24,932 nt of DNA from an uncultured bacterium (lineage in GTDB: Bacteria; Lernaellota; Lernaellaia; Lernaellales; Lernaellaceae): the NCBI GenBank assembly GCA_964534375.1, contig CAZHPN010000081.1, forward strand, positions 1 to 24,932, read 5' to 3'. The notes beneath the pieces were generated by a model that worked only from the letters and a program-made list of their open reading frames with translations, was not told where the DNA came from and did not search any database. Below are positions 1 to 14,804 of this stretch, piece after piece (position 1 is the stretch's first letter; each line of letters begins with the position of its first letter). The translations under genes and the position numbers were made by a program.

Positions 1-580
1 GTTTCTCGACGGGCGGTTTCGCGGGCGGCGGCGGGAGCGCGCCGGCGCCGCCCGACGCGACCGCCCAAACGGCGACCATGGACCCCGCCAGATACGCGGC
101 GACGATCCAGGCCTCGACGATCGGGGTCTGGGCGGCCCAGGCGCCAACGGCGACGCCCAGCGCGCCGGGCGCGACGAACAACCCGAGCGGCGCCGAACGG
201 CCGACGGCGGCGCGGATGGCCAGTCCGCCCGCGCCGACATGGAACACGGCGTTGCCCAGCGCCCCGACGACGACGGCCGCCGCCGCATTCAGCGGCAGCA
301 GCAAGACCGCCGCGAAACAGAGGCCGAGACCCGCCAGGGCGCCGTCGCGCAGCCGCCCCAAACGGTCGAGCGCCCACCCGAGCGCCGGTTGGACGGCGAA
401 AGCGAGCAGATCGTAAGCGATGATCAGGCGAAAGAAATCGTCGCGCGGCGTGTGAAAAATCGCGTGGCCGCGAAACAGCACCCAGATCGTCGTCGCGTCG
501 ACCACGCCGTGGACGACGCCCAGCGCGAGCGGCAGCGTTCGCGGCGGCCGGGCCGTCGCCTGAAGGCCGTGGTCGGTCAT
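1..580 (-). CDS. MFS transporter, FSR (fosmidomycin-resistance)-like; partial, runs off the window start
   Basis: Not in the ORF track. Hand translation from ATG at 580: MTDHGLQATARPPRTLPLALGVVHGVVDATTIWVLF...AYDLLAFAVQPALGWALDRLG...GALGNAVFHVGAGG...LGLFVAPGALGVAVG. Several hydrophobic segments; HxxxD, QPxxGxxxDR and GNAxFH motifs typical of FSR-type MFS proteins. Confidence 0.8.
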   Translation of the reverse strand, partial: MTDHGLQATARPPRTLPLALGVVHGVVDATTIWVLFRGHAIFHTPRDDFFRLIIAYDLLAFAVQPALGWALDRLGRLRDGALAGLGLCFAAVLLLPLNAAAAVVVGALGNAVFHVGAGGLAIRAAVGRSAPLGLFVAPGALGVAVGAWAAQTPIVEAWIVAAYLAGSMVAVWAVASGGAGALPPPPAKPPVEK

Positions 581-692
581 CGCCCTTGCGCCATGTGAAA
601 GTTGCCTTCTGTCCGTTGGGTGAGATTCTACGCGGCTTCCGCCGGCGGGGAAATGGTTCTTCTGTGTGCGAATTGCGGCTCGGCGTTGCGCG

Positions 693-781
693 TAGGGCCG
701 CGCCTGAATCCCGACTTGGCCGCGCCTTAGGTAAGATCCCGGCCCTGCCCGACATACAGTTCGCGAACACTGTCATAAATT
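693..781 (+). promoter_or_regulatory. Phased-box promoter cassette, copy 1 (upstream of the beta-barrel genes)
   Basis: Boxes end at 707 (GCGCCTGA), 729 (GCGCCTTA) and 752 (GCCCGA, followed by CATAC). TAAATT at 776-781 lies 21 bp after CCGACA. Confidence 0.7.
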
Positions 782-824
782 GCCGCCGAGCCATTTCTAT
801 CGACCTTGTCGCGAAGGACCAACC

Positions 825-2132
825 ATGAGACGAATGTTGCTCGTCCTGATTTTGATTTTCGCTGCCTTCACGGCGACGGCGCGCGCGTCCTGGGAAATCG
901 AGGCGATGGGCGGTTCCGCGTACAACCTGCCGCTGCCGTTGTCCATCCATCAACACGACGAACCCAATATGGACTTTCTCGCGCGCTACGACGAGCGAAC
1001 GTTCGTCAGCACGCCGTATTACGCCTGGCGGACCGGTTGGTGGTTCGACAACAACCAGGCTATCGAATTCGAACAGATTCACCACAAAATCACGCTGACC
1101 AACCGGGGCGACGCCGGACCGGGCAACATCGAATGGTTCGAAATTTCGCACGGCTGCAACCTGATGTACTTCGACTGGGCGATCAACGTCTGCCCGGCGC
1201 TCGACGCGGCGGGCAACCCGATCTGGTGGCACGATTTCATCGTGCGTTTGGGCGCCGGCCCGGTGATCACGCATCCGGAAGGCGAAGTGCGCCACCGGCG
1301 ATTGCCCAGCGGCTCCGGTTTGCTGCGCATGGGCTACTACCTTTCCGGCGAAACCGTCCAGGTCGCGGTGGAAAAGCGATTTTACCTCTGGAAGAGGCTG
1401 TTCCTGTCCCTGGAAGTCAAAAACACCGATTCCTACGTAACGGTTCCCGTGTGGCACGGCAATGCGGACGTGCCCAATGCGGCCTGGCACGGCTTGCTCG
1501 GCGTCGGCTACGAATTTTTCCGCAAAGACCCCAAGAAGAGCGTCGTCATCCAGGAAAGCACCCCGGCGCGAAACCCCGCGCCGGACAGCATCGCAGGGTT
1601 TCCGCCGCCGGAAACGCCGCCGAAGCCGCCCGTGGCCCTGCTCACCGCCCGCCCCGAGTACGGCATCGGCGGCGCGTTCAACCCGCGTGCGCATTGGGGC
1701 GGCGCGGCGCTCGAACCGTACATCATGCCGACCCCGGATCGCGGGTTTATCGTCTCGCCGTTGCTGACCTTCGGCTGGGGGTCCAGCGGGACGCTCAGCA
1801 GCTACAATTTTTCGCAATACGCGATCGCGGTCGGCCTCGGCTACCAATGGTATTTCGGGGCCGAAAAGGCGACGAGTTTGTATTTGATGGCGCACTTCGG
1901 CGGCGGCCAGATCACGCGGCAAAAATACCTTTCGGGCGGATTCGGGTATGCCGACGCGACGATCGGCTCGTTGCACCGCTGGAAAAACGGCTTCCTGCTC
2001 GGCGGCGCGTTGATCGCGGACGGCCTCTTCGGGCGCCACACGCAATCCAGCGAGATTTTTGGCGGCTCGAACGCCGTCGGCGACCTTGAGATGTGGCGGC
2101 TGGGCGCCGTGCTGGGTTACGCGATCAAGTGA
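825..2132 (+). CDS. Secreted two-domain outer-membrane beta-barrel protein (LpxQ-like N-terminal barrel plus a second barrel-like domain)
   Basis: ATG 825 follows GAAGGA; signal peptide MRRMLLVLILIFAAFTATARA. Domain 1 has PYYAWRTGWW, EQIHHK, FEISHGCN and GAGPVITHPE and ends GVGYEF (nt 1517). A Pro-rich linker leads to domain 2, with alternating aromatic/Gly strands, homologous to CDS 2262-2858. Confidence 0.7.
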   Translation: MRRMLLVLILIFAAFTATARASWEIEAMGGSAYNLPLPLSIHQHDEPNMDFLARYDERTFVSTPYYAWRTGWWFDNNQAIEFEQIHHKITLTNRGDAGPGNIEWFEISHGCNLMYFDWAINVCPALDAAGNPIWWHDFIVRLGAGPVITHPEGEVRHRRLPSGSGLLRMGYYLSGETVQVAVEKRFYLWKRLFLSLEVKNTDSYVTVPVWHGNADVPNAAWHGLLGVGYEFFRKDPKKSVVIQESTPARNPAPDSIAGFPPPETPPKPPVALLTARPEYGIGGAFNPRAHWGGAALEPYIMPTPDRGFIVSPLLTFGWGSSGTLSSYNFSQYAIAVGLGYQWYFGAEKATSLYLMAHFGGGQITRQKYLSGGFGYADATIGSLHRWKNGFLLGGALIADGLFGRHTQSSEIFGGSNAVGDLEMWRLGAVLGYAIK

Positions 2133-2261
2133 TGCGGCGCTGCGCGACGCCGGAAGGGAGCGTCATTATGATAGTGATGCGCCCGGACAGCGTTCCGGAG
2201 CCGGCGGCATGGCGCCGGCGCAGGTGGGTTTGGAACCACGCGCGCGCAGGAGGGAGCCGCG

Positions 2262-2858
2262 ATGAAGCGATTGGCCTTGATCGTTTGGCTGGCGACGGCG
2301 TCAACGCTCGTCATTTCCGCGGGGTCGTCGGCGCAGGATCTTCCGGAAATGCCGCCCTGGTTGCCCGCGACCGTGCTCACGGCCCGCCCGGAGTTCGGCG
2401 TCAGCGGCGCCTTCGGCCCGCGCACGGCGTGGGGCGGCTTGACGCTCGAACCGTGGTTCATGCCGACGCCGGATCGCCAGTTCATCGCGGCGCCAATGGC
2501 GTCGTTCGGCTGGGGCGCGGGCCGTCTTGACGTGTTTTCGCAGTGGGCCGTCGCGATCGGCCTCGGATACCAATGGTATTTCGGCGCCGCGCAAGCGACG
2601 AATGTGTACCTCATGGCGCACGTCGGCGGCGGCCAGATCACCCGACGAGAATTTCCCACCATGCCGTTCGGCTACGGCGACGTGACGCTCGGCTCGCTGC
2701 ACCGCTGGAAAAACGGCTTCGTGTTCGGCGGCGCGTTGATCGCCGACGGCCTCGTCGGACGCACGACGCGCTCGGACAAGATCTTCGGCGGCCCGGCGTG
2801 GCCCGGCTATCTCGAGATGTGGCGGCTCGGTTTGGTTTTCGGTTACGCGGTGCATTGA
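2262..2858 (+). CDS. Putative small outer-membrane beta-barrel protein, paralogue of the C-terminal domain of the upstream gene
   Basis: GGAGGGAG RBS; signal peptide; shares LTARPE, MPTPDR, GLGYQWYFGA, YLMAHxGGGQITR, GSLHRWKNGF, GGALIADGL and LEMWRLG with the upstream protein. Confidence 0.75.
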   Translation: MKRLALIVWLATASTLVISAGSSAQDLPEMPPWLPATVLTARPEFGVSGAFGPRTAWGGLTLEPWFMPTPDRQFIAAPMASFGWGAGRLDVFSQWAVAIGLGYQWYFGAAQATNVYLMAHVGGGQITRREFPTMPFGYGDVTLGSLHRWKNGFVFGGALIADGLVGRTTRSDKIFGGPAWPGYLEMWRLGLVFGYAVH

Positions 2859-2897
2859 CGCGCCCCGGCGCCGCGTCGCGACCATCGCGGCCGTGCG

Positions 2898-2987
2898 TAG
2901 GGCCGCGCCTTAGGCGAAACCCCGCTTGCGCCTTATGCGAAATGTCGGCCTCGCCCGACATACGGACCGCCCATGATTCCTTAGACT
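2898..2987 (+). promoter_or_regulatory. Phased-box promoter cassette, copy 2 (upstream of the response regulator)
   Basis: Boxes end at 2912, 2935 and 2958. Perfect inverted repeat ATGTCGG-N6-CCGACAT at 2942-2961. TAGACT at 2982-2987 lies 21 bp after CCGACA. Confidence 0.7.
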
Positions 2988-3009
2988 CCGGCGTCAACAA
3001 GCTTGCGAC

Positions 3010-3711
3010 TTGTTTCGCGACGGAAACAAGCCGGCGAAAACTCCGGGGGCGGCATTGGGTGGAATCAGGAAAACGCGCGTCTTTCTGGTCGACGACCATC
3101 CGCTCGTGCGCGAGTGGCTCACCAACATGATCAACCAGCAGCCCGACCTGGTCGTTTGCGGCGAGGCCGACGGCGCGCCGCAGGCCCTGGAAGCGATCGG
3201 CGGCGCCAGGCCGCAGGTGGCCATCGTCGATCTTTCGCTGAAAAGCGGCTCCGGTTTGGAGCTGGTCAAGAACCTCAAGCAAACGTGCCCGGACGTCGCG
3301 GTCGTCGTTCTCTCGATGCACGACGAAATGCTCTACGCCGAACGCGTGTTCCGCGCCGGCGCGCGCGGCTACGTCATGAAACGGGAATCGACCTCAAAAG
3401 TGGTCGAGGCGATTCGCAGCGTCGTCAACGGCAAGCGCTTCATCAGCGAGCGCGTCGCCGCGGCGATGGTCGAGAGACTGGTCGAGGGCCCGCCGGACGG
3501 CGCGTCGCCCGTCGCTTCGCTGACCGATCGCGAGTTGGAAGTCTTCGAGCTGCTGGGGCAAGGCAAGGAAACACGCGAAATCGCCGCGATGTTGCACGTC
3601 AGCGTCAAAACCGTGCAAGCGTTTTACGCCCTCATCAAGAGAAAATTGAACGTGGCGACCGAGCGCGAACTGCTGCGCGAAGCCATTCGCTGGCACGAAA
3701 ACCGTTCGTGA
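3010..3711 (+). CDS. NarL/FixJ-family DNA-binding response regulator (REC + LuxR HTH); start uncertain
   Basis: VFLVDDHPLVR, phosphoacceptor IVDLSL, LSMH and GYVMK in the receiver domain; C-terminal LTDRELEVFELLGQGKETREIAAMLHVSVKTV. Confidence 0.93.
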   Translation: MFRDGNKPAKTPGAALGGIRKTRVFLVDDHPLVREWLTNMINQQPDLVVCGEADGAPQALEAIGGARPQVAIVDLSLKSGSGLELVKNLKQTCPDVAVVVLSMHDEMLYAERVFRAGARGYVMKRESTSKVVEAIRSVVNGKRFISERVAAAMVERLVEGPPDGASPVASLTDRELEVFELLGQGKETREIAAMLHVSVKTVQAFYALIKRKLNVATERELLREAIRWHENRS

Positions 3712-3848: not shown

Positions 3849-4176
3849 TTTTTCCGTGACGGCCGGTTGACGGCGTCGGTTTGCCGAACGAACGAAGCGC
3901 GATGGCAAACATTCGGCGCGCCGGGCGGCACAGGCGAGCCGCCGCCGATCGGGCGCGGGCCGCCGCTTCGCTTCGTTTTTTCGCTCTTTTGCATTGATGA
4001 ATTCTTTGCGCCACGGCGCCCCGTCTTTACGATTTCTTGATCTGCGGAGCGTTACGTTTTTCGTGCGGAGCGGCAGCGGAGCCATCCGCAAGCTTCCGAG
4101 GCGCGTGAAATTTCAAGAAGTGCGGCCGCTTGGCGGCGGGCGGGGCGGCCCGCCGCGCAGGGAAAGGAAGTGTTTG

Positions 4177-5556
4177 ATGAGAAGAACCGGGATCGAGCTC
4201 GCGAGCCTGTTCGCGGCGCCGATGTTGCTGGCGGCGGCGCTGTGCCTCGCGATCCCGGCCGCGTTCGCCGCGGAACCGGCGGCGTCGGCGAACCGCGACG
4301 CTGACGATGCGGTCCCCGCGAGCCTCTCGCTGGCCGAGGCCGAGCGCATTTTTCTCGAACGCGGACTCGATCTGCTGATCGCCGAAAACGGCGTCGAGGG
4401 CGCCCAGGGCGATCTGGCCGCGGCCGGCGCCGTTCCCAATCCGAACCTCGCCGTGACGGCCGACGTCGTGCCCAAACTCAATCGCGACATCCTCTACAAA
4501 AACATCGGCAAGTACATTCCGGCGAACGTCTGGGGGTTGGGCATCGGCTTGAGCGACAACGCCGCCATCGAAGACCAACTCTCGGGCAAGCGTTCGCTGC
4601 GCATCCTGGCAATGTCGAAGGCCTTGGCCGCGGCGCGGCTGAACGTCGAGGACATCAAACGCGTCGAACTGCCGCAACTGCGCGAGGCGTATGTTGCGGC
4701 GGTGATGGCCAAACTCAATCTCGACGCCGCGAAGGAATCCTTCGAAACGTTCGACACGCAGCTCAAGCTGAACCAGATGCGGTACGACCACGGCGCCATC
4801 AACGCGTTGGACCTTTCCCGCGTCCTGCAGGCGCAACTCGAAGCGCTGCAAGCGATCGACCAGGCGCAGGACGGCGTGCAGCAGGCGATGTCCGCGCTGC
4901 TGTTCCTGCTCGGCGTGCGCAGCGGCCTGCCGCAGGTCGCGCTCACCTCCGGCATCGGGTACGCGCCGTCAACGCTGCTCAAAGCCGCCACGATTCAGTC
5001 GCTCCACGAACTGGCGACGAAAAATCGCACGGACGTCAAGATCGCCGTCGCCAACATGGAGCAAGCCGATGCGGCGTTGCGTCAAGCCAAACGGTCGCGC
5101 CTGCCCGACATTCAACTGAATCTGGGGTACTCGGAAATTTGCGAGGGCGCCAACTGTTCGTCCGAGCCGGCGTTCAGCTTCGGCCTGCAAGGAAACCTGC
5201 CGATTTTCTATCAGCAGCACGGCGAAATTCAACGCGCGAGCGCCAATGTTCTGGCCGCCCAACGAACGGTCGAGAAGGCCAAAGCCCAGGTGCTTTCCGA
5301 TGTTGCGCAGGCCTATGCCGGCTTTGACGCGGCCCGCAAGCAAGTCGAGCGGATGGAAAGCAAACTCCTCGAACAGGCCAAGCTGTCGCGCGATCTCGCG
5401 CAGCACATGTACCAGAACGGCGCCGCCTCGCTCATCGACTTCTTCGATGCGCAGCGGCAGTACGTCGCCACGAAGCTCGAATACAACCAGGACCTCGCGA
5501 ACTATTGGTCCGCCGTCTACCAGCTCGAACAAGCCACGGCCACCCCCCTGCGGTGA
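4177..5556 (+). CDS. czcC: TolC/CzcC-family outer-membrane efflux channel
   Basis: ATG 4177 follows GGAAAGGAAG; signal peptide; LSLAEA, PNPNL, RLPDIQL, LPIFYQQHGEIQRA, YQNGAASLIDFFDAQR and LEQATA. First gene of a C-B-A operon. Confidence 0.88.
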   Translation: MRRTGIELASLFAAPMLLAAALCLAIPAAFAAEPAASANRDADDAVPASLSLAEAERIFLERGLDLLIAENGVEGAQGDLAAAGAVPNPNLAVTADVVPKLNRDILYKNIGKYIPANVWGLGIGLSDNAAIEDQLSGKRSLRILAMSKALAAARLNVEDIKRVELPQLREAYVAAVMAKLNLDAAKESFETFDTQLKLNQMRYDHGAINALDLSRVLQAQLEALQAIDQAQDGVQQAMSALLFLLGVRSGLPQVALTSGIGYAPSTLLKAATIQSLHELATKNRTDVKIAVANMEQADAALRQAKRSRLPDIQLNLGYSEICEGANCSSEPAFSFGLQGNLPIFYQQHGEIQRASANVLAAQRTVEKAKAQVLSDVAQAYAGFDAARKQVERMESKLLEQAKLSRDLAQHMYQNGAASLIDFFDAQRQYVATKLEYNQDLANYWSAVYQLEQATATPLR

Positions 5557-5567
5557 GGAGCAACGAC

Positions 5568-7835
5568 ATGACTTTGGCAAGAGCACTGATTCTTCTCATC
5601 CTCGGCGCCTTGCTGGCCGCCTGCGCGGAAAGCGCGGCCAACGCGCCGGACAACGTCCCGCGCGCGGGCCCGGAATGGCGGTACATGCGCGGCTCGGGCT
5701 GGGTGCGCGTCAGGCCGACCGACATCCCGCCCGCCGACGAGGTGTGGCTATCCGAGGCGCAAATGACGAAGGCCGGCATCCGGATCGCCGTGGCCGCCGA
5801 GCAGGACATTCCGCAGGCGATTACGGTCGGCGGGCGCATCGCGTTCAACGATCTTCGCGTCACGCACGTCTTTTCGCCGGTCACGGGCCGCGTGACGCGC
5901 GTGTTTGCGCAGCCGGGGCAGCGACTCAAGAAGGGCGCGCCGTTGCTGGCCATCGCGTCGCCCGATGTCGGCCAGGCGTTCTCCGACGTCGTGAAGGCGC
6001 AGGCGGGTTTGGCGGCCGGGGAAGCCGATTTTCACCGCCAGGAAATTCTGTTCCGGTCCGGCGCCGCGCCGCAACGCGATTTCGAAGGCGCCGAGGACAA
6101 TTACCGCAAGGCGAAGGCGGAATATGACCGCGCGCAGCAACGGGCAGCAGCGCTCAAGTCCGGCTCGCTCGACGCGGTGACGCAGGAATACACGCTTCGC
6201 AGCTTTATCGAGGGCGAGGTCATCGCCCGCATGGCGAATCCGGGCGCCGAGGTGCAGGGCCAATACTCGGGCGGAACCTCCAACGAACTTTTCACGATTG
6301 GCGACATCAAAGAGGTTTGGCTTTTCGCGGACGTGCAGGACACCGACTTGCCGCGCGTCCATGTTGGCGGCGACGCGGAAATCCGCGTCGTCGCGTATCC
6401 GGGCCGGGTTTTCCGCGGGAAAATCGACTGGATCTCGGAGACCGTGGACCCGGTCCTGCGCACCGCGCGGGTTCGTTGCGTGCTGCCCAACGAGAGTGAA
6501 GAGTTGAAACCCGAGATGTTCGCGACCGCGTCGCTCGTGCAGCCGCCGGTGCGCCGGCTTGCCGTGCCCGCCGAGACGGTTGTCCGCATCAACGAGACTT
6601 CGTTCGTCTTCGTCGCGGACGGCAAGCGGCCCGACGGGCGCATGATCTTCAAGCGCCGGGCCGTGGCCCTGGGCCAACGCGAGGGGGATTTGGCGGTGAT
6701 TGCCGGCGGCCTGAACCCCGGCGAACGCGTGGTCACCGAGGGCTCGATCAGCCGCGACCAGCCGAACGACGAGGCGTGGCCGACGCAAGAGCAACTCGAG
6801 GCCGCCGGCATCAAGACGGCCGTGGTCGAGGAGCGCGACGTGGATGACGCGGTGTCGGTCGGCGGTCGCCTGACTTTCGACGACCTGCGCATCAGCCATG
6901 TCTTCTCGCCCGTGAACGGCCGCATCACGAAAGTCTTGGCCAAGCTCGGCCAGCAGGTGGAAAAAGGCACGCCGCTGGCGGCCATCTCGTCGCCCGACGT
7001 GGGCCAGTTCGTTTCGGACGTGGTCAAGGCGAAGGCCGACCTCATCGCGGCCGAGCACGAGCATCAGCGGCAGAAAGATTTGTACGGCTATTCCCCGACC
7101 GCACACGCCGGCACACTGAAAGACCTCGAAGCCGCCGAAAGCGCCTGGCGCAACGCCAAAGCCGAATTCGATCGCGCGCAGCAAAAAGCCCAATTGCTGA
7201 AGGCCGGGTCGGTCGACGATGTCACGCAGGAGTACATCCTGCGCAGCCCGATCGCCGGCGAGGTCGTGGCGCGGGCCGCCAATCCGGGCCTCGAGGTTCA
7301 GGGCCAGTACTCGACCGGCAGCAACGTCGTCGAGCTGTTTACGATCGGCAACGTCGATCGCTTGTTGGTGTTGGGCGACGTCTACGAGATGGACCTGCCG
7401 CACATCGCGAAGGGCGACGACGCGGCGGTCACGGTAGCCGCGTACCCGAATCTGCACTTGCACGGCGTCGTCGATTGGGTGGCGAGCGCACTCGACCCCG
7501 TGCTGCGCACCGCGAAAGTGCGCTGCATCATCGACAACCCAGACCATTTATTGAAGCCGGAAATGTATGAATCGCTGCGCATCTCTGTGCCGGGCAAGCG
7601 AATGCTGGCGATCCCGCGGCAGGCGCTGATGCGCGTCGAAAAGGACACCGTGGTGTTCGTCGCCACCGGCGAGCGCAAGGATGGCGGCGCGGTGGTCTTT
7701 AAGCGCCGCAAGGTCGTCGCGCTGGAAGACCGCCCCGGGGCCATGGTGCCGGTGCTGAACGGGCTCGAACCGGGCGAAACCATCGCCATCGAACACCCGA
7801 TGCTGCTCCTCGGGATGATCGAGGCGCGTTCATGA
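5568..7835 (+). CDS. RND periplasmic adaptor (CzcB-like) lipoprotein containing two complete tandem MFP units
   Basis: GAGGAG RBS; lipobox LAAC. Repeats begin at about 5736 and 6768 (344-aa period). Each has HVFSPVxGR(V/I)T, an alpha-hairpin, LRSxIxGEV, ELFTIG, DPVLRTA, LKPEM, FKRRxV and GLxPGE. Confidence 0.92.
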   Translation: MTLARALILLILGALLAACAESAANAPDNVPRAGPEWRYMRGSGWVRVRPTDIPPADEVWLSEAQMTKAGIRIAVAAEQDIPQAITVGGRIAFNDLRVTHVFSPVTGRVTRVFAQPGQRLKKGAPLLAIASPDVGQAFSDVVKAQAGLAAGEADFHRQEILFRSGAAPQRDFEGAEDNYRKAKAEYDRAQQRAAALKSGSLDAVTQEYTLRSFIEGEVIARMANPGAEVQGQYSGGTSNELFTIGDIKEVWLFADVQDTDLPRVHVGGDAEIRVVAYPGRVFRGKIDWISETVDPVLRTARVRCVLPNESEELKPEMFATASLVQPPVRRLAVPAETVVRINETSFVFVADGKRPDGRMIFKRRAVALGQREGDLAVIAGGLNPGERVVTEGSISRDQPNDEAWPTQEQLEAAGIKTAVVEERDVDDAVSVGGRLTFDDLRISHVFSPVNGRITKVLAKLGQQVEKGTPLAAISSPDVGQFVSDVVKAKADLIAAEHEHQRQKDLYGYSPTAHAGTLKDLEAAESAWRNAKAEFDRAQQKAQLLKAGSVDDVTQEYILRSPIAGEVVARAANPGLEVQGQYSTGSNVVELFTIGNVDRLLVLGDVYEMDLPHIAKGDDAAVTVAAYPNLHLHGVVDWVASALDPVLRTAKVRCIIDNPDHLLKPEMYESLRISVPGKRMLAIPRQALMRVEKDTVVFVATGERKDGGAVVFKRRKVVALEDRPGAMVPVLNGLEPGETIAIEHPMLLLGMIEARS

Positions 7836-10800
7836 TGCAGCGCATCGTCGGTTTTGTCCTGCGGTACCGCGTCGCGGTCGCGGCGCTCGCCGCCTGCCTC
7901 GTCGTCGCCGGGCTCGCCGCGTTTCACGAGTTGCCGATCGAGGCCTACCCGAACCCGGTGCCGCCGCTGGTCGAAGTGATCGCCCAGCCGCCCGGGTGGA
8001 GCGCCGAGGAAACCGAGCGCTACGTCACGATTCCGCTCGAAATCGGTCTCTCGGGGATTCCGGGCCTCGACCACATCCGCTCGCAGTCGCTCTTCGGTCT
8101 GGCGGACGTGAAGTGCTATTTCAAATGGGGCACGGCCTACAAAGACGCGCGCCAGGAAGTCATCAATCGGCTGCAATTCATCACGCTCCCGTCGGGCATT
8201 CAGGGGCAGTTGTCGCCATGGAACGCCATTGGCGAGATCTTTCGCTACCGGCTCGTCGACCGGATTTACGAGGACCAAAAACAGCAACTTGAGAAAGAGA
8301 TTAAAGACCCCGGCGAACTCGAAGCGAAACTCAAACCGCTGAGAGAAACGAGCCTGCTCAAACTCAAAGCGATCGAAGACTGGGTGATGGAGCGCCAGTG
8401 GAAGCAGGTGCCCGGCGTCATCGACGTGACCAGCTACGGCGGGCTTTCGAAGGAGTACCACGTCGAGGTTGACCCCTACCGCCTGAAAGGCCGCGGGGCG
8501 ACGCTGGCGCAGCTCACGACGGCGATCGCCAACGCCAACCAAAACGTCGGCGGCCAGCGGCTCGAGTTGGGCGACCAGTCGTTCACGGTCCGCGGCATCG
8601 GGCTGATCGGCTCGCTCAAGGATATCGGCGATATCGTCGTGCTCGAACAAAAGGGCATCCCGGTGCGCGTCCGCGACGTGGCCGACGTGCGCATCGGCTG
8701 GTCGCCGCGCCTGGGCATCGTGGGCAAGGACGACGACGCGGACATCGTGCAGGGCATCGTGTTGATGCAGTACGGCGCGGAGACGGCGAAAACGCTCGCC
8801 GGCGTCCGGCAACGCCTCAAGCATATCCGCCAATTCGTCCTGCCCCCCGACCAGGGCGTCGAAATCGTGCCGTATTACGACCGCGGCGCCTTGGTGGATA
8901 TCACAACACGCACCGTCATGGAAAACCTCCTCATGGGGATGGGCCTCGTCGTTGTGATATTGATCCTGTTCCTGGGCAACGTGCGCGCCGCGCTGGTGAC
9001 GGCGCTCAACATCCCCCTGGCGCTGCTCGTCGCGTTCTGCGGCATGGTCGTCATGGGCGCCTCGGCGAACCTGATTTCTCTGGGCGCGGTCGATTTCGGC
9101 ATTGTCGTCGACTCGACGGTCATCATGGTGGAGAACATCTTCCGCCATCTCGGCAAGCACGGGACCGGCGGGATTCGCAAGCGCGTCTGGACCGCCGCCG
9201 GCGAAGTCGGACGGCCGATGGCCTATTCCACCGTGATTATCGGCGTCGCATTCCTGCCCTTGTTCATGATGAAAGGCACCTCGGGCGTCATTTTCTCCCC
9301 GATGGCCCACACCTACGCCCTCGCGATCGGCGGCGCGATCATCCTCGCGTTGACGCTGACGCCGGCGGTCGCCACGTGGGTTTTGCCGGCAACGGCTGAA
9401 GAGAAAGAAAGCCGCGTCATGCAGTTTTTGCAGCGCCTGTACGCCCCGCTCTTCGACCGGGCGTTGCGGCATCCGAAGGGCGCGTTGCTGTTGATGCTCG
9501 TGCCGATTCTGCTGTGCGTCGTGCTTTTTCCGTTCCTCGGCGGCGAATTCATGCCCAAGCTCGAAGAGGGAAATTTCTGGATTCGCGCCACCCTGCCAAT
9601 GTCCATTTCGCTGACCGAATCGGCGACGCAGGTGGGCGGGATGCGCAGCATTCTGAAGAGCCACCCGGAAGTGCTGTCGGTCGTCTCGCAACTCGGGCGG
9701 CCCGACGACGGCACCGACGTCGCCGGCTTTAACAACATCGAACTGTTCGCGCCGCTCAAGCCGTTTGGCGAGTGGCCGCGCGGGCTCACCAAGGAGAAGC
9801 TGACGGCGCAATTGGAGAAGGAATTCGAGCGCGGCTTCCCCGGCGTGATTTTCAATTTCTCCCAATACATCTCGGACAATGTCGAGGAAGCCGTCTCCGG
9901 CGTGAAGGGCGAAAACAGCGTCAAGGTTTACGGCCCCGACGTCGCCAAGAACGATTCGGCGGCGGGCGCGATTGTCGACGCTATGGGCAAGGTCCCCGGC
10001 ATCGAAGATCTCGGTCTGTTCCGTTCGATGGGCCAGCCCAGCATCAAGATCGCGCCGGATCGCGTGGCGCTGGAACGCTACGGCCTCAACACGGGCGATG
10101 TCATGGCGGTGGTCGCCGCGACGATCGGCGGCCAGGCCGTGACGCAGGTCTACGAAGGCGAGAAGAGTTTCGCGCTGACGGTCCGCTGGAAGGAGCAATA
10201 TCGCAACGGCGTCGACGCCATCCGGCAAATCGCCGTGGCCTCGCCCGACGGCAGCCAGATTCCGCTGGGGCAACTCGCGTCCGTGACCGAGGAGCCGAGC
10301 CCGTCGGTCATATACCGGGAAGACGGCCAGCGGTATTCGCCGGTGAAATTCTCGGTGCGCGGCCGCGACCTGCAATCCACCATCGCCGCGTCGCAGCGCA
10401 CGATCGCGCAGGCGGTCCGGCTGCCGGCCGACAGCCACCTCGAATGGAGCGGCGAAATCAACGAACTCGAAGAGGCGAGGGGGCGCCTGAGTCTCATCAT
10501 TCCGTTGACGCTCCTCATCATCGCGTTCCTCACGTATAGCGCCGTGAGAAACTGGATCGACACGGTGATCGTCCTGATCGATATCCCGCTGGCCTGCACC
10601 GGTGGCCTGCTGGCGCTGCTCATCACCGGCGAGCCGTTCTCGGTGTCCGCCGCGATGGGTTTCATCTCCATCTTCGGCATCGCCATTCAGAGCGCGATTC
10701 TCGTTGTGACCTATGCGCAACGGCAATGGGCCGAAGGCAAATCCCTGGTCGAAGGCGCACGCGAAGCCGCGAAACAGCGCTTCCGCCCGATTCTGATGAC

Positions 10801-11032
10801 GACCGTGGTGGCGATGCTCGGCTTGCTGCCCGCGGCGCTGTCGCACGGCATCGGCGCGCAGACGCAGCGGCCGCTGGCGATCGTCGTAATCGGCGGCTCG
10901 CTGATCCTCGCCGTTTTGACCCAGGTGCTCCAGCCGCCGCTGCTGGTGCTCGCGCACGGGTGGCTCGACAAGAAAAACGGCGGGGCGACGCCCTCACCGA
11001 CGATTCCGGCGCCCATCGTCCCAGCCGATTGA
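7832..11032 (+). CDS. czcA: CzcA/CusA-family heavy-metal efflux RND transporter
   Basis: 1066 aa; ATGA overlap with the adaptor gene; LPIEAYP, TM4 motif GAVDFGIVVDSTVIMVEN, EFMPKLEEG, RFRPILMT and QRPLAIVVIGG. Confidence 0.93.
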   Translation: MMQRIVGFVLRYRVAVAALAACLVVAGLAAFHELPIEAYPNPVPPLVEVIAQPPGWSAEETERYVTIPLEIGLSGIPGLDHIRSQSLFGLADVKCYFKWGTAYKDARQEVINRLQFITLPSGIQGQLSPWNAIGEIFRYRLVDRIYEDQKQQLEKEIKDPGELEAKLKPLRETSLLKLKAIEDWVMERQWKQVPGVIDVTSYGGLSKEYHVEVDPYRLKGRGATLAQLTTAIANANQNVGGQRLELGDQSFTVRGIGLIGSLKDIGDIVVLEQKGIPVRVRDVADVRIGWSPRLGIVGKDDDADIVQGIVLMQYGAETAKTLAGVRQRLKHIRQFVLPPDQGVEIVPYYDRGALVDITTRTVMENLLMGMGLVVVILILFLGNVRAALVTALNIPLALLVAFCGMVVMGASANLISLGAVDFGIVVDSTVIMVENIFRHLGKHGTGGIRKRVWTAAGEVGRPMAYSTVIIGVAFLPLFMMKGTSGVIFSPMAHTYALAIGGAIILALTLTPAVATWVLPATAEEKESRVMQFLQRLYAPLFDRALRHPKGALLLMLVPILLCVVLFPFLGGEFMPKLEEGNFWIRATLPMSISLTESATQVGGMRSILKSHPEVLSVVSQLGRPDDGTDVAGFNNIELFAPLKPFGEWPRGLTKEKLTAQLEKEFERGFPGVIFNFSQYISDNVEEAVSGVKGENSVKVYGPDVAKNDSAAGAIVDAMGKVPGIEDLGLFRSMGQPSIKIAPDRVALERYGLNTGDVMAVVAATIGGQAVTQVYEGEKSFALTVRWKEQYRNGVDAIRQIAVASPDGSQIPLGQLASVTEEPSPSVIYREDGQRYSPVKFSVRGRDLQSTIAASQRTIAQAVRLPADSHLEWSGEINELEEARGRLSLIIPLTLLIIAFLTYSAVRNWIDTVIVLIDIPLACTGGLLALLITGEPFSVSAAMGFISIFGIAIQSAILVVTYAQRQWAEGKSLVEGAREAAKQRFRPILMTTVVAMLGLLPAALSHGIGAQTQRPLAIVVIGGSLILAVLTQVLQPPLLVLAHGWLDKKNGGATPSPTIPAPIVPAD

Positions 11033-11232: not shown

Positions 11233-13038
11233 ATGAAACGCACGACGATTGCGATGGTGTTCCTGGTCCTGATTCTGACGGTCGGCGTCTCCCCCGGACT
11301 GACCACAGGCGCCGATAGCGCCGCCGCCGACCCGTTCGCCGCGTTCCCGAAGACGTCGGACCCCGCGCTGACCTGGCCGTGGGCGACCTGGGCCGTTTAT
11401 TACGACGCCCTCGAGCACGACACGCTCACCGCCGCGAACGTCGGCGACTGGCTGACCCGCTGGACGCGCATCGCCGACATGGAAGGCGAGTGCGAAACGC
11501 GGCTGGCGATACTCAAGTCGGCAAACACCGCCGACGAAGCGGCCGAGAAACGGCACGACGAATTTCTCGAGAAGATCCAAACGCCCTCGGAAGAGCGCAA
11601 CCAGAAGCTGCGCAACAAATTGCTCGCCAGCAAATTGTCGCCCGCCGGCTTCGCGTTGCCGCTGAAAAAGATGCGCGTGCAGGCCGACATCTTTCGCGAG
11701 GCGAATCTGCCGCTGCTCGTCGACGAGCAGAAACTGTCCGACGAATACATGAAAATCCGCGGGGCCCAGACCGTGTCGTGGGACGGCAAGGAAATCACGG
11801 AATCCCAGTTGACCGCGGTCTATCAGAAAACCGACCGCGGCGTCCGCGAAAAGGCCTGGCGCCTCAGCTCCGCCCGGTGGCTGCAGGATCGCGCCGCGAT
11901 CGGCAAGCTGTGGAGCAAGCTGCTGGCGCTGCGGCTGAAGATCGCGGCCAACGCCGGCTTCGCGGACTACCGCAGTTTCCGCTGGCAGGATTTCCAGCGT
12001 TTCGACTACACGCCCGACGAGGTCAAACGCTTCCACGAGGTCATCCGCAAGGTCGTCGTGCCGGCCGCGGTGCGCATTTACGAGCGCCATCGCCGGCAAC
12101 TCGGCATCGACCAGACGCGGCCGTGGGATATCGACGTCGATCCGACCGGCAAGCCGCCGCTGAAGCCGTTCGCGACGGTCGACGAACTCGTCGAAAAAAC
12201 GCAGGCGGTCTTCAACGCGATCGATCCGGAACTGGGCGCGCGCTTCGCGACGATGCGCCGCGAGAAAACGCTCGACCTGGACAACCGCAAGAACAAGGAG
12301 CCGGGCGGCTTTCAGGCCGACCTGCCGGTGCGCGGCCTGCCGTTCATCTTCATGAACGCCATCGGCGTCCACGACGACGTGCAGACGCTGTTTCACGAAT
12401 CGGGCCACTCGTTCCATTTCTTCGAGGCGTCGCGCCTGCCGTGGTTCCAGCAGCGGGCCGTGCCCACCGAATTCGCCGAGGTCGCTTCGATGTCGATGGA
12501 ACTGATGGCGGGCCGGATGTTGGATCGGCAGCCGAACGCGTTCTACAGCCCTGCCGACGCCGCGCGGGCGCGCATTTCGGTGCTCGAAGGCGTGCTGCAG
12601 TTCTGGCCGTATATGTCGGTCGTCGATCTGTTCCAGCACTGGGTGTACGAGCACCCGGACGCTGCCGCGGAGCCGAAGAACTGCGATCGCGAATGGGCGC
12701 GGCTGTGGGACATCTACATGCAGGGCGTCGACTGGAGCGGCCTTGGCGACGCCAAGGAAACCGGCTGGCAGCGCAAGCTGCACATTCACACGATTCCGTT
12801 CTACTACATCGAATACGGCATGGCCGAACTCGGCGCGGTGCAGGTCTTCGGCCGCGCGCTGAAAGACCCGAAACAGGCGCTGGCCGACTACCGCCACGCC
12901 CTGTCCCTCGGCGGCACGGCCACCCTGCCCGAGTTGTTCGCCGCGGCCGGCGGCAAATTCTCGCTCGACGAGAAGACGATGGGCGACGCCGTGGCGCTGC
13001 TGGAAAACACGATCCTCGAGTTGGAACGCCGCAAATGA
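11233..13038 (+). CDS. M3B oligoendopeptidase F-family zinc peptidase with N-terminal signal peptide
   Basis: GAGG RBS then ATG 11233; RKNKEPGGF, TLFHESGHSFH (HExxH), EFAEVASMSME and KLHIHTIPFYYIEYG. Confidence 0.92.
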   Translation: MKRTTIAMVFLVLILTVGVSPGLTTGADSAAADPFAAFPKTSDPALTWPWATWAVYYDALEHDTLTAANVGDWLTRWTRIADMEGECETRLAILKSANTADEAAEKRHDEFLEKIQTPSEERNQKLRNKLLASKLSPAGFALPLKKMRVQADIFREANLPLLVDEQKLSDEYMKIRGAQTVSWDGKEITESQLTAVYQKTDRGVREKAWRLSSARWLQDRAAIGKLWSKLLALRLKIAANAGFADYRSFRWQDFQRFDYTPDEVKRFHEVIRKVVVPAAVRIYERHRRQLGIDQTRPWDIDVDPTGKPPLKPFATVDELVEKTQAVFNAIDPELGARFATMRREKTLDLDNRKNKEPGGFQADLPVRGLPFIFMNAIGVHDDVQTLFHESGHSFHFFEASRLPWFQQRAVPTEFAEVASMSMELMAGRMLDRQPNAFYSPADAARARISVLEGVLQFWPYMSVVDLFQHWVYEHPDAAAEPKNCDREWARLWDIYMQGVDWSGLGDAKETGWQRKLHIHTIPFYYIEYGMAELGAVQVFGRALKDPKQALADYRHALSLGGTATLPELFAAAGGKFSLDEKTMGDAVALLENTILELERRK

Positions 13039-13214: not shown

Positions 13215-13221
13215 AATTAAA

Positions 13222-13519
13222 CCGAAGTTCCCGGAAGTTTTAAGGCATGGAACCGGGATGTCTCTTTGACAAGGCAGGAGATTTTCCCGCAAGAACCGCG
13301 CCCAATGTACCCATGTATTTGAAATGTTTATCTTGAGTTCATTGGCGATGTGTTCTATTTAGTTGCCATGCACATCGAAGCAGTCCCCAATCGCAATTCC
13401 CCGCCGGCCATCCTGCTGCGCGAAACGTGGCGCGAGGACGGCAAGATCAAAAAACGCACCATCGCCAATCTCACGCATGGGCCGGCCAAGAAGATCGAAG
13501 CCCTGCGCCGGGCGCCTTT
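13222..13519 (+). mobile_element. IS1634-family element, left-end remnant with a 5' fragment of the transposase (ATG 13368)
   Basis: MHIEAVPNRNSPPAILLRETWREDGKIKKRTIANLTHGPAKKIEALRRA matches the N-terminus I recognise for IS1634 transposases; similarity stops after about 49 aa. AT-rich leader. CCGAAGTTCC at 13222 is an inferred left end. Confidence 0.75.
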
Positions 13520-13608: not shown

Positions 13609-14337
13609 CTACTCCATTCGCTTCAACTGGCGCGTCGTGAAGAGGTCGTCCGAGAGGCCCGTGTTGAACGTCGGTTCGATCATTTTCACGACGGTCTTGT
13701 GGCCGGTCTTGACGCTGGCGATCTCGAGCAACATGCAATACCACTGCCCCGTGATCTTCTGGTAATCGCTGCGAACTTCCGTTTTCTCTTTTTCGCCCTT
13801 GGGATTGTAGTATTCGAGGCGGACGATCGCGTTGATCTCGCGGTCCACGTGGATGACGATCTTGGAATATGACGACGCCTTGCCGGCTTTGGGCGTCAGT
13901 TCGAGCGCGAACTCCTTGGGCGTCGTTTCGAGCAGTTTCGGCGCGTACACGTCGTCATAACGCGTGATCGCCATGTCATCCGCGTTGTAATCCGTGCCCA
14001 TGAAGCTCTGGTTGTGCGTGTGCGCGGCGATGCGGCGGACTTTTTGGTCCTCGGGCAGATACACGTAGCTTGTGTCCGGATCGAGCGACATGAACGCCAT
14101 GCCGGTGTCGAAAAAGCGGTACAGCCGCTTTGGGCCTTTCTGCAGCGTGAGGCCGTTGGCGGTTTTTTCCACGCCATCCGCGCCGCGGACGATGATCTTC
14201 AGTTTGGTCTTCAGATCTTTGAATTGCGTGGCCTGGTCGTCCACGCTTTTGAGGATTTCGTCGGCTGTTTGTTCCGCCCACACGGGCGCAACGAAACAAA
14301 AGACCGCGGCCAACACCAGGCAGAGAAAGCGTTTCAT
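13609..14337 (-). CDS. Outer-membrane lipoprotein-sorting (LolA-like) periplasmic protein
   Basis: AAGGAG RBS; signal peptide; YLPEDQKVRRIA...QSFMGTDYNADDM, YSKIVIHVD and FNTGLSDDLFTTRQL. Confidence 0.85.
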   Translation of the reverse strand: MKRFLCLVLAAVFCFVAPVWAEQTADEILKSVDDQATQFKDLKTKLKIIVRGADGVEKTANGLTLQKGPKRLYRFFDTGMAFMSLDPDTSYVYLPEDQKVRRIAAHTHNQSFMGTDYNADDMAITRYDDVYAPKLLETTPKEFALELTPKAGKASSYSKIVIHVDREINAIVRLEYYNPKGEKEKTEVRSDYQKITGQWYCMLLEIASVKTGHKTVVKMIEPTFNTGLSDDLFTTRQLKRME

Positions 14338-14501
14338 GGTCTCTCCTTATCGATCGTTCGCAAATTCCCGTCGGTGAAAAATCGGGCGATTATACTGTCT
14401 CATGTGACACATTCCAAGCCCGGAGAGTTCAAAAATGAAGATCAGCCACAGAAACGCGGTGTTCTTAGCACGACCCTTCGAACCGCAACCAAGCGTTTTT
14501 T

Positions 14502-14768
14502 CAGCCACAGATGTCGCCGATGACCGCAGACTTCGCACGGGCCACGACGTGTTCCGCCCTGTCGAACGCCATTCGCGGCCCCTGCGTCTGCGTCAATCTG
14601 CGCAATCTGCGGCTGCCCGGAAAATCAAAGAGTTTCCTGTTAATATTTGCTCTGTGCCCTCAACCGGGCGCAATAAAACCACGCCGGCCCCACGCCGGTT
14701 CATTCCGCAATCCGCAATCCGCAATCCGAAATTCGGTTGCGGCTTTGCCGCGCTGTGCCTCTGTGGTT
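14502..14768. repeat. Intergenic repeat mosaic (imperfect inverted repeat, 7-bp tandem, 38-bp dispersed element)
   Basis: Imperfect inverted arms at 14502-14531 and 14586-14615; (TCCGCAA)3 TCCGAAA at 14704-14731; 14731-14768 matches 20267-20304 at 37/38 positions. Confidence 0.85.
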
Positions 14769-14804
14769 GACCGCCATAGAACGCGGCGCGAAGCGCCGCC
14801 CACC

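What the first reader, a model, noticed from the sequence alone, without database searches (positions are those of the whole stretch)
5568..7835. Natural single-chain tandem membrane-fusion protein (two full CzcB-like adaptors in one 755-aa lipoprotein)
Seen: two complete, diverged MFP units with a 344-aa period, joined in frame by a very short linker (VTEGSISRDQPNDEAWP), with only one lipoprotein anchor. The units differ throughout, so this is not a collapsed or duplicated assembly segment. Known: RND pumps use six adaptors per transporter trimer in two non-equivalent positions (CusBA, AcrAB-TolC); P. aeruginosa TriABC uses two separate MFPs. Inference: this protein hard-wires the adaptor pair, so three chains would form the pseudo-hexamer at 1:1 gene dosage and each half could specialise.
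Basis: partly seen in the sequence, partly recalled or inferred. Interest (0 to 1): 0.8.

Follow-up and report, generated by a model that had tools for sequence, protein, structure and literature searches.

The report
Natural two-in-one efflux pump adaptor
One gene encodes two complete, diverged copies of the adaptor that links a metal-efflux pump to its outer-membrane channel, joined by a short conserved linker; the design recurs in soil and wetland bacteria, has not been studied, and the idea of naturally fused adaptors is already in print.

Summary
Window 5568-7835 (+) is one intact 755-aa lipoprotein gene with two complete four-domain periplasmic adaptor (MFP/PAP) units. They are 50% identical over 341 aa and joined by a 9-residue linker. 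The gene lies between an outer-membrane factor gene and a ZneA/CzcA-like RND gene.

It is not an assembly artefact. Contigs from other sequencing runs bridge the junction without indels. A protein search found 424 relatives at E<=1e-3, and its 120 best rows are 648-779 aa with the same architecture.

N-halves and C-halves form separate clades with matching inner groupings, so one old event founded the family. Both halves are equally conserved. They differ most in the pump-contacting beta-barrel and membrane-proximal domains.

Doubling arose independently in an 850-aa distant tandem and in unfused adjacent gene pairs.

Most likely three chains supply the six adaptor positions of one pump, as in the engineered TriA-TriB and AcrA-AcrA fusions. 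This is inferred, not shown.

The family is rare among species genomes: 0 of 16 others in the window's phylum, and 4 of 147 in one myxobacterial order. The operon was probably acquired horizontally.

Natural fused adaptors were noted in 2009 (DSY0927). I therefore rate this a new variant of a known kind, of moderate interest.

The parts
3010..3711 (+). NarL/LuxR-type response regulator upstream of the operon (context; a possible regulator, not shown)
   Evidence: Pfam Response_reg 1.6e-23 and GerE 9.5e-14. An 83% DNA-identical paralogue lies on the same contig as, and about 1.8 kb from, another single-unit adaptor match on G000 contig C48. It is not linked to tandem operons in other loci.
3994..5556 (+). 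Outer-membrane factor (TolC-like) gene, first gene of the operon. The true start is probably downstream of the TTG at 3994.
   Evidence: Pfam OEP in 2 stretches, 5.7e-38. An OMF lies upstream in 29 of 33 metagenomic tandem loci and in all 5 tandem loci from other genomes.
5568..7835 (+). Tandem periplasmic adaptor (two MFP/PAP units), a 755-aa lipoprotein including the stop codon
   Evidence: The AlphaFold2 model has pLDDT 87.9 and pTM 0.77. A GGAG lies 8 nt before the ATG at 5568.
5568..5624 (+). Signal peptide with lipobox L-A-A-C19, the only membrane anchor
   Evidence: Sequence. C19 is at least 90% conserved. A lipobox-like motif is present in 85 of 119 relatives' N-termini.
5625..5738 (+). 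Flexible tether, residues 20-57
   Evidence: pLDDT is below 50 for residues 21-45.
5739..6740 (+). Adaptor unit 1 (residues 58-391): membrane-proximal, beta-barrel, lipoyl and alpha-hairpin (H132-163, H169-197) domains
   Evidence: DSSP of the model. Structural matches over model residues 63-397 to MacA, MexA, AcrA and CusB, Z 12-16.
6741..6767 (+). Inter-unit linker, residues 392-400 (GSISRDQPN), of fixed length in the family
   Evidence: No length variation in the 60 printed rows of the 119-protein alignment, with a conserved 'S-R-E-Q-P-N-D-E-V-W-P' consensus. Mean pLDDT is 67 for block 391-400.
6768..7832 (+). Adaptor unit 2 (residues 401-755): the same four domains, hairpin H476-508 and H513-544, no signal peptide, and a hydrophobic C-terminal tail LLLGM
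   Evidence: ZneB 3lnn_B, Z 16.4 over model 422-677, and an AcrA model aligned over 317 residues of model 407-751.
7832..11032 (+). HME-type RND transporter (ZneA/CzcA-like). Its ATG overlaps the adaptor's stop codon (ATGA).
   Evidence: TIGR00914 820.9 bits against a cutoff of 701.45. ZneA 4k0e E 8.3e-196. The overlap is shown.
8267..8347 (+). Insertion of about 27 residues in the RND porter region (residues 146-172), predicted to form a helical hairpin. Found only in RNDs linked to tandem adaptors, but not in all of them.
   Evidence: Gap against ZneA. Present in 6 of 6 tandem loci of genomes (window included) and 0 of 6 single-unit loci. Among metagenome loci, 9 tandem loci have it, 11 do not, and 18 of 18 measurable complete single loci lack it. 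Model H144-156 and H160-191, pLDDT 84-90.

Best explanation
The gene encodes a covalent pair of periplasmic adaptor proteins for a three-gene heavy-metal RND efflux pump (OMF, tandem adaptor, ZneA/CzcA-like RND). The protein is exported and lipid-anchored once, at Cys19. Each half folds into a full adaptor with membrane-proximal, beta-barrel, lipoyl and alpha-hairpin domains. The chain leaves unit 1 at its membrane-proximal domain and enters unit 2 at its membrane-proximal domain through a 9-residue linker of fixed length. The two units can therefore stand side by side. Three chains would fill the six adaptor positions around one RND trimer. The N- and C-units would occupy the two non-equivalent positions known from CusBA, AcrAB-TolC and TriABC, in a fixed 1:1 ratio. 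The family goes back to one old duplication or fusion. The operon then spread patchily, probably by horizontal transfer, and reached the window's genome that way.

Shown: the architecture, its integrity, its conservation, the two clades, the operon context and the fold.

Inferred: the 3:3:3 chain stoichiometry, the side-by-side packing, the division of labour between the halves, and a divalent metal as substrate.
For: Architecture and integrity rest.

Family: 424 proteins match at E<=1e-3. The 120 best are 648-779 aa long, 53-100% identical over 82-100% of the query, and are named only as generic adaptor subunits.

Operon order: OMF, tandem adaptor and RND lie in that order in the window and in all 5 tandem loci from other genomes. 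Of 80 metagenome loci, 33 carry the tandem as one ORF.

Trees: N-halves form one clade (96*). C-halves form one clade (98*), apart from one 405-aa protein that is probably a fragment. The inner groupings of the two clades match (and again).

Constraint: the halves are equally conserved (mean top-residue frequency 0.71 against 0.72). Within one protein the lipoyl domains are 65-67% identical. The beta-barrel and membrane-proximal parts are 35-44% identical. The only 4 positions fixed differently in the two halves (at least 80% each) all lie in the beta-barrel.

Fold: the model has pLDDT 87.9 and pTM 0.77. Both units match solved adaptors over all four domains. I read a pTM of 0.77 for the whole chain as a defined mutual arrangement of the two units; that is my inference.

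Half against half: complex prediction gave weak support. The score was 0.32 and the best of 3 controls 0.01. That mark was reached by 116 of 157 solved complexes and 2 of 215 mismatched pairs. A score of 0.60 or under was seen in only 18 of those 157 and in both mismatches that passed. The runs agree in at least 72% of contacts and the partner's pLDDT is at least 74. Like complexes (CusB and AcrA pairs) are solved, so the pass may be from memory.

Precedent from papers (passages read): fused AcrA dimers complement an acrA deletion, TriA and TriB have distinct roles, and natural fused adaptors exist (PMC4446572; PMC4338810; PMC13328181).

Recurrence: an 850-aa tandem (P0323) has halves 67% identical to each other but only about 32% identical to the query. 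Four loci carry two adjacent, separately anchored adaptor genes that form their own clade inside the single-unit clade (100*). The AU test rejects joining them to the N clade (p 1.5e-10), though I named that group after seeing the tree.

Substrate hint: the RND is closest to ZneA. It keeps the D-D-E pattern of TM4 (DFG..DST..VEN) and acidic residues at the ZneA positions that I recall as the proximal zinc site (the residue list is recalled).
Against: No experiment or RNA data exist for this protein.

The inter-unit arrangement could not be compared with the solved fused TriA-TriB chain. Every structural match covers one unit only.

The half-half binding test gave only weak support.

The beta-barrel and membrane-proximal domains are also the least conserved within each half (N-N 47-59%, C-C 46-62%). 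Their greater divergence between the halves is therefore only modest evidence of specialisation.

The branching order of the N, C and single-unit clades is unresolved. joins C with the singles (96*). joins N with the singles (95*).

The zinc ligands of ZneB, as I recall them (H220, H284, E328), are not kept in either half, apart from a His in unit 2 at the first position. The adaptor's own role in metal handling is therefore open.

Only three lipid anchors per pump instead of six is untested.
Confidence: 0.7

Rival explanations
1. Polyprotein reading: the chain is cut at the conserved linker after export. This would give one lipid-anchored adaptor and one soluble adaptor, which then assemble like TriA and TriB.
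For: The linker is fixed in length and conserved in sequence, which a processing site would also be. Its model confidence is lower, with mean pLDDT 67 for residues 391-400.
Against: The conserved D-E-V/A-W motif at the linker's end also stands at the start of unit 1 (D57-E58-V59-W60). It stands too at the start of the mature single-unit and split-pair adaptors (G-E-V-W-L-T-P). It is therefore part of the first strand of the fold and not a linker-specific site. No protease gene is linked to the operon. Engineered uncleaved fusions are reported functional.
Confidence: 0.1
2. Only one unit acts as the ring adaptor, with six chains per pump. The other unit hangs outside as an accessory, for example a metal-delivery or regulatory module.
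For: Nothing here measures stoichiometry. Adaptors of metal pumps can carry extra metal-handling domains (passage on CusB and SilB in PMC4446572).
Against: Both units keep all four domains, including a full hairpin. R157/R501 are invariant and L161/L505 nearly invariant at matching hairpin positions. Both units are equally conserved. Neither unit keeps the ZneB zinc site. Twelve full adaptors around one trimer has no precedent that I know of (my own knowledge).
Confidence: 0.1
3. Artefact or decaying gene: a mis-assembled duplication, or two genes joined by a sequencing error.
For: The genome is a 381-contig metagenome bin with 3.56% estimated contamination.
Against: The halves are only 50% identical. 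Independent contigs bridge the junction with no indel. A metagenome contig is 100% identical over residues 1-755 (L032). The 120 best relatives and 33 of 80 metagenome loci carry the same uninterrupted architecture. Repeats and a peptidase gene shared with relatives tie the contig to its genome.
Confidence: 0.01

Closest known systems
TriA/TriB of Pseudomonas aeruginosa TriABC-OpmH and the engineered fused TriA-TriB chain (PDB 6vej chain P, 695 aa)
   Same: Two different adaptors serve one RND pump and occupy non-equivalent positions. Joined in one chain they still work (review passages). The chain lengths are similar (695 against 755 aa).
   Different: TriA and TriB are natural separate genes of a triclosan (HAE1) pump, and their fusion is man-made. 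Here the fusion is natural, old, belongs to a metal-type (HME) pump and has a conserved 9-residue linker. Sequence similarity to 6vej_P is weak (E 7.2e-12). No two-unit structural superposition was obtained.
DSY0927 of Desulfitobacterium hafniense, the natural fused dimeric adaptor cited from Zgurskaya et al. 2009
   Same: A natural single chain made of two adaptor units. It is already used in reviews as an argument that adaptors work as dimers (PMC4446572; PMC4338810; passages only).
   Different: It belongs to an ABC-type transporter of a Gram-positive bacterium. Its halves are of different adaptor types: the N-half is MFS-type without a coiled coil and the C-half is RND-type. Here both halves are of one type, 50% identical, in a diderm OMF-adaptor-RND operon, with a whole family behind it. 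I could not read the 2009 paper itself (not held).
ZneB of Cupriavidus metallidurans (PDB 3lnn) and CusB of E. coli (3ne5, CusBA complex)
   Same: ZneB is the closest solved relative of each unit (E 4.3e-36; Z 15.5-16.4, 31-32% identity). The partner pump is closest to ZneA. I recall from my own knowledge that CusBA shows two CusB per CusA in non-equivalent positions. The passage I read says only 'a trimer of dimers of CusB'.
   Different: ZneB and CusB are single-unit proteins. The recalled ZneB zinc ligands are not kept. Residues 20-57 hold a single Met, so there is no CusB-like N-terminal methionine site (the motif is recalled).
Engineered tandem AcrA-AcrA fusions (Xu et al. 2011, cited in PMC4446572 and PMC13328181)
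   Same: A covalent adaptor dimer supports a working RND pump (passages).
   Different: Those are artificial and made of two identical units. The natural protein here has two diverged units.

Membership tests
Efflux RND transporter periplasmic adaptor subunit (NCBIfam TIGR01730, RND_mfp) | Score above the curated cutoff | tested here: met
   236.1 bits against a cutoff of 94.9, in two stretches.
Efflux RND transporter periplasmic adaptor subunit | Four-domain fold: membrane-proximal, beta-barrel, lipoyl and alpha-hairpin | tested here: met
   Both units. Model pLDDT 87.9. Matches to ZneB, MacA, MexA, AcrA and CusB cover model residues 63-397, and 407-751 or 422-677.
Efflux RND transporter periplasmic adaptor subunit | Encoded beside an RND transporter and an outer-membrane factor | tested here: met
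   OMF at 3994-5556 and RND at 7832-11032, with an ATGA overlap. The same order is seen in 5 other genomes.
CzcB/NccB family metal efflux adaptor (NCBIfam TIGR00999) | Score above the curated cutoff | tested here: not met
   259.4 bits for the whole protein against a cutoff of 319.3. It is nevertheless the best-scoring NCBIfam model.
ZneB-type zinc-binding adaptor | Zinc ligands between the beta-barrel and membrane-proximal domains (His220, His284, Glu328; recalled, and consistent with H, H and E at chain positions 221, 285 and 329) | tested here: not met
   In the alignment, unit 1 has R263, V and V at these positions. By my reading of the alignment, unit 2 has a His at the first position only.
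CusB-type Cu(I)/Ag(I) adaptor | N-terminal three-methionine metal site (recalled), and CusB model NF007303 | tested here: not met
   Residues 20-57 hold a single Met. NF007303 scores 114.9 bits against a cutoff of 390.
Naturally fused dimeric adaptors (as named in PMC4446572) | Two complete adaptor units in one uninterrupted reading frame | tested here: met
Heavy-metal efflux (HME) RND pump, for the partner gene | CusA/CzcA family model TIGR00914 above its cutoff, and charged TM4 residues | tested here: met
   820.9 bits against 701.45. TM4 reads DFGIVVDSTVIMVEN beside ZneA's DFGIIVDGAIVVMEN. The meaning of this motif is recalled.
Bacterial lipoprotein | Signal peptide ending in a lipobox with an invariant Cys | tested here: met
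   LLAAC19. C19 is at least 90% conserved among 78 relatives. Lipidation itself cannot be tested here.

The most novel reading that the evidence does not exclude
Metal-type RND pumps have repeatedly turned their adaptor into a heterodimer. I count at least three independent doublings: this old fused family, a younger 850-aa fused family, and unfused adjacent pairs. In one branch of the fused family the pump then evolved its own helical hairpin (RND residues about 146-172) as a docking site for the covalent pair. That would be a co-evolved pump-adaptor interface absent from every solved pump. It would also be a natural system in which the separate jobs of the two adaptor positions can be read from sequence.
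Probability: 0.25. Interest if true: 0.6.

Novelty: new variant of a known kind. Interest (0 to 1): 0.45.

Why it matters
How the six adaptors of a tripartite pump divide their work is still debated. One set is thought to hold the outer channel and the other to activate the transporter. So far this question has been approached through TriAB and man-made fusions.

A natural, ancient and well-conserved covalent pair offers three things:
- A ready construct for cryo-EM with a fixed 1:1 ratio.
- A sequence record of which positions became different between the two seats. Here they lie in the beta-barrel.
- A natural linker design.

The finding also shows that public annotation hides the architecture, since every source name seen is a generic adaptor name. 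Finally, adaptor doubling appears to be recurrent in metal pumps.

Tried and rejected
1. Two-unit structural match to the solved fused TriA-TriB chain (6vej). Foldseek on the PDB, VIA-align on Foldseek's top chains and VIA-align on 48,161 representatives returned only one-unit alignments. The predicted mutual arrangement of the units could therefore not be checked against an experimental pump.

2. RND insertion as a hallmark of tandem adaptors: rejected. It was 6 of 6 against 0 of 6 in genome loci. In metagenome loci, 11 of 20 measurable tandem loci lack it. It is a later gain in one subclade. The fast-evolving P0247 (which I equate with L031 by matching contig length) lies inside that subclade.

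3. Adjacent split gene pairs (L058, L060, L061, L065) as the unfused ancestor of the tandem: rejected. They form their own clade within the single-unit adaptors, and the AU test gives p 1.5e-10.

4. Rooting and the order of the N, C and single-unit clades. The two quick trees disagree, so this stays unresolved.

5. Expression. No RNA holder was listed among 5 runs.

6. Response regulator as part of the system. It was not found beside tandem operons elsewhere.

7. Earlier notes of this scan. There was no note on this protein or on a look-alike.

8. Papers not held. These were Weeks 2015 (PMC4690728), Fabre 2021 (PMC7935746), Moraleda-Munoz 2010 on the six Myxococcus xanthus metal pumps (PMC2937488) and Zgurskaya 2009. 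Any of them may mention natural tandem adaptors beyond what the reviews quote. Only the first 300,000 characters of the Chem Rev review are held.

9. Searches for a description of this family found none in the held library.

10. The search for related loci on genome contigs used patterns from the query itself. It found only 3 tandem loci among 21, so it is not a census.
Full report
**What is there**

Window 5568-7835 (+) is one open frame of 755 codons. It begins with a signal peptide and the lipobox L-A-A-C19. A GGAG lies 8 nt before the ATG. The stop codon overlaps the ATG of the next gene (ATGA).

Residues 1-401 and 402-755 align over 341 positions with 170 identities (50%, E 3e-117). Pfam finds HlyD_D23 in two stretches. 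NCBIfam RND_mfp also matches in two stretches, at 236.1 bits against a cutoff of 94.9. The CzcB/NccB model is the best NCBIfam hit but stays under its cutoff (259.4 against 319.3).

The gene before it is an outer-membrane factor (OEP). The gene after it is a CusA/CzcA-family RND transporter (TIGR00914, 820.9 against 701.45).

**It is not an artefact**

The junction (6720-6800) reads through in frame. Contigs of other public runs cover it with no gap. Run X2 spans 5485-7874 with no difference and run X3 spans 6456-7017 with no difference. No insertion or deletion was listed in any of the four runs laid. The only difference, T>C at 5443, lies outside the gene. Run X1 may be the source sample and is not independent.

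**A family stands behind it**

A search limited to proteins of 415-1322 aa found 424 with E<=1e-3 among 8000 candidates scored. The 120 listed are 648-779 aa, 53-100% identical over 82-100% of the query. Their sources name them only as adaptor or membrane fusion proteins, from Polyangia, Kofleriaceae, Myxococcaceae and Anaeromyxobacteraceae bins (names also).

In the library of 50%-identity representatives, the N-half alone matches 37,949 proteins at E<=1e-3. Among the best 150, seven chains of 673-850 aa show two or more matched stretches, and there are several shorter chains that look cut.

**Structure**

With 78 aligned relatives, AlphaFold2 gives pLDDT 87.9 and pTM 0.77.

The model has these parts:
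- Residues 21-45 are disordered and act as a tether.
- Unit 1 (58-391) and unit 2 (401-755) each show the strand and helix pattern of a full adaptor.
- Each unit has a two-helix hairpin (132-163/169-197 and 476-508/513-544).
- Residues 392-400 between the units are coil with lower confidence.

Solved adaptors match each unit over all four domains. ZneB 3lnn_B gives Z 16.4 over model 422-677. An AcrA model aligns 317 residues over 407-751. MacA, MexA, AcrA and CusB match over 63-397 at Z 12-16. No hit covers both units, so the predicted packing of the two units could not be compared with the solved engineered TriA-TriB chain (6vej_P, found by sequence).

Folding the two halves as separate chains gave weak support for binding. 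The score was 0.32 and the best of 3 controls 0.01. The mark was reached by 116 of 157 solved complexes and 2 of 215 mismatches. A score of 0.60 or under was seen in only 18 of those 157 and in both passing mismatches. The runs agree in at least 72% of contacts and the partner's pLDDT is at least 74. Similar adaptor pairs are solved, so the pass may be from memory.

**The linker**

In an alignment of 119 tandem relatives, the 60 rows printed show no length variation at the junction. The consensus there is S-R-E-Q-P-N-D-E-V-W-P. None of the 119 has a cysteine between positions 375 and 425, so there is no second lipid anchor.

The D-E-V/A-W motif is not special to the linker. It also opens unit 1 (D57-W60), and it opens the mature part of related single-unit and split-pair adaptors. 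Unit 2 is thus a whole adaptor that has lost its signal peptide and tether.

**History**

Two quick maximum-likelihood trees were built.

In the first, halves of 31 tandem proteins and 36 single-unit relatives give three groups:
- all N-halves (96*);
- all C-halves plus one 405-aa protein that is probably a fragment (98*);
- 34 of the 36 single-unit proteins (95*).
The groupings inside the N and C clades repeat each other.

A second tree with deeper tandem members gives the same N clade (96*), but the C-halves form a basal grade under its distant root rather than a clade; in both trees the window's C-half groups only with other C-halves. One old event therefore founded the family, and the two halves have evolved together since. 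The order of the three groups is not settled, because the two trees disagree.

Doubling has also happened elsewhere:
- P0323 (850 aa) has two HlyD_D23 stretches. Its halves are 67% identical to each other but far from the window's family (32% identity to the query; branch length 1.2).
- Four metagenome loci carry two adjacent adaptor genes in the same frame, separated by a single stop codon. Each gene has its own signal peptide and lipobox. These pairs form a clade inside the single-unit group (100*). Forcing their first genes to join the N clade costs 206 log-likelihood units (AU p 1.5e-10). I named that group after seeing the tree.

**Constraint and divergence**

The two halves are equally conserved across the family (mean top-residue frequency 0.71 and 0.72). 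Within one protein, the lipoyl parts of the two halves are 65-67% identical, the hairpin 50%, and the beta-barrel and membrane-proximal parts 35-44%. The corresponding identities between different proteins run from 46% to 75%.

Only four positions are fixed differently in the two halves, each at 80% or more. They are V250/L599, A254/G603, D258/E607 and A319/E668, and all lie in the beta-barrel. By established knowledge of AcrAB-TolC and CusBA (recalled), the barrel and membrane-proximal domains contact the transporter. This fits two different seats on the pump. These domains are also the most variable overall, so the signal is modest.

**The pump**

The RND protein is closest to ZneA (4k0e, E 8.3e-196), well ahead of CusA (1e-137). 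Its TM4 reads DFGIVVDSTVIMVEN. Acidic residues stand at the ZneA positions that I recall as its proximal zinc site: E136, D602, E610 and D654, with D658 replaced by E. A divalent metal is therefore the likely substrate.

The adaptor keeps neither the recalled ZneB zinc ligands nor a CusB-like methionine cluster.

Compared with ZneA, the RND carries about 27 extra residues at 146-172. They are modelled as part of a helical hairpin (H144-156, H160-191, pLDDT 84-90; whole model pLDDT 77.3, from 23 sequences).

The distribution of this insertion is as follows:
- It is present in the RND of all 6 tandem loci from genomes (window included) and in none of 6 single-unit loci.
- The 80 metagenome loci split into 33 tandem in one ORF, 4 split pairs, 24 complete single-unit and 19 cut by a contig end.
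- Of the 33 tandem loci, 9 have the insertion, 11 lack it and 13 could not be measured.
- All 18 measurable complete single-unit loci lack it.
It is therefore a later gain in one branch of the tandem family. It is a lead, not a hallmark.

**Distribution**

The window's genome is a 6.3-Mb bin of 381 contigs (94.4% complete, 3.56% contamination) with one tandem adaptor. None of the other 16 genomes of its phylum has a match at E<=1e-60. Thirteen of those 16 are at least 90% complete and at most 5% contaminated.

The contig itself belongs to the genome:
- Its peptidase M3 gene (11318-13026) is 73% identical in DNA to a same-family genome.
- Two repeats (13216-13512 and 17394-17735) recur on other contigs of the same genome.
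- The operon (3994-11032) has no DNA match in relatives beyond three short RND pieces.

In an even sample of 401 genomes of the phylum of a Kofleriaceae bin, only that bin itself had the full-length protein. In its order, 4 of 147 genomes had it. The closest relatives (71-73% identity) come from bins labelled Polyangia or 'delta proteobacterium'.

A patchy spread by horizontal transfer is the simplest reading. The G+C content of the operon (62-66%) does not differ from its flanks.

**What is known**

Reviews already state three things:
- Fused dimeric adaptors exist in nature. DSY0927 of Desulfitobacterium hafniense is a fusion of an MFS-type and an RND-type adaptor in an ABC system (PMC4446572; PMC4338810).
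- Tandem AcrA fusions are functional.
- TriA and TriB do different jobs in one pump.
I read passages only, not whole papers.

Six searches of the held library found no description of tandem adaptors of metal RND pumps or of this family. Four key papers are not held and may say more.

**Verdict**

The reading as a hard-wired adaptor pair is the best explanation (about 0.7) but is inferred. The concept is not new.

What is new here:
- a conserved family of same-type tandems in metal RND operons;
- its single old origin, with two further independent doublings;
- its fixed linker;
- a pump insertion confined to one of its branches.

I rate it a new variant of a known kind, with interest 0.45.

Noticed in passing
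window 8267-8347 (RND residues 146-172): A charged insertion of about 27 residues in the RND porter region, predicted to form a helical hairpin. In the loci examined it occurs only in RNDs that follow a tandem adaptor, and only in one subclade of them.
   Followed up: yes
L058 4103-6319, L060 3563-5779, L061 4013-6226, L065 1-1926: Operons with two adjacent adaptor genes in the same reading frame, separated by a single stop codon. Each gene has its own signal peptide and lipobox. This is an independent, unfused doubling of the adaptor, like TriA/TriB.
   Followed up: yes
protein P0323 (850 aa; no locus fetched): A distant second tandem adaptor. Its halves are 67% identical and each is preceded by a Cys-rich motif (C-D-H-x5-L-x-C-x-D-C-G). 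It has a hydrophobic N-terminal segment instead of a lipobox. Its 90%-identity cluster also holds a 416-aa and a 389-aa protein, each listed with a longest contig of 5202 bases, which may be one contig carrying a split or frameshifted copy.
   Followed up: partly
window 13216-13512 and 17394-17735: Two repeats of about 300-340 bp recur on many other contigs of the same genome. The first has at least 3 further copies at 90-92% identity. The second has 10 or more further copies or fragments at 82-89%. They may be small mobile or REP-like elements.
   Followed up: no
window 14697-14768, with a 38-nt copy at 20267-20304: A short element with three tandem ATCCGCA heptamers, followed by the palindrome CCGAAATTCGG and by GC-rich inverted repeats. 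Copies at 91-97% identity occur on many contigs of a same-family genome (G013) and in another family of the phylum (G008).
   Followed up: no
window 3010-3711 and G000 contig C48 26309-26990: The NarL-type response regulator in front of the operon has an 83% DNA-identical paralogue on the same contig as, and about 1.8 kb from, another single-unit adaptor match in the same genome. No histidine kinase domain was found in the ORFs upstream of it (1-3000).
   Followed up: partly
window 13609-16145 (- strand) and 16453-17148 (+): A LolA-like gene (13609-14337) and a second outer-membrane factor gene (14805-16145) lie on the minus strand. Both have 77-80% DNA-identical paralogues elsewhere in the genome. 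An LTXXQ-motif (Spy/CpxP-like) periplasmic protein gene follows.
   Followed up: no
L002 8111-11258: In this long-read-style bin, the RND gene after the tandem adaptor is broken into two frames near residue 642. This may be a frameshift or an assembly error.
   Followed up: no
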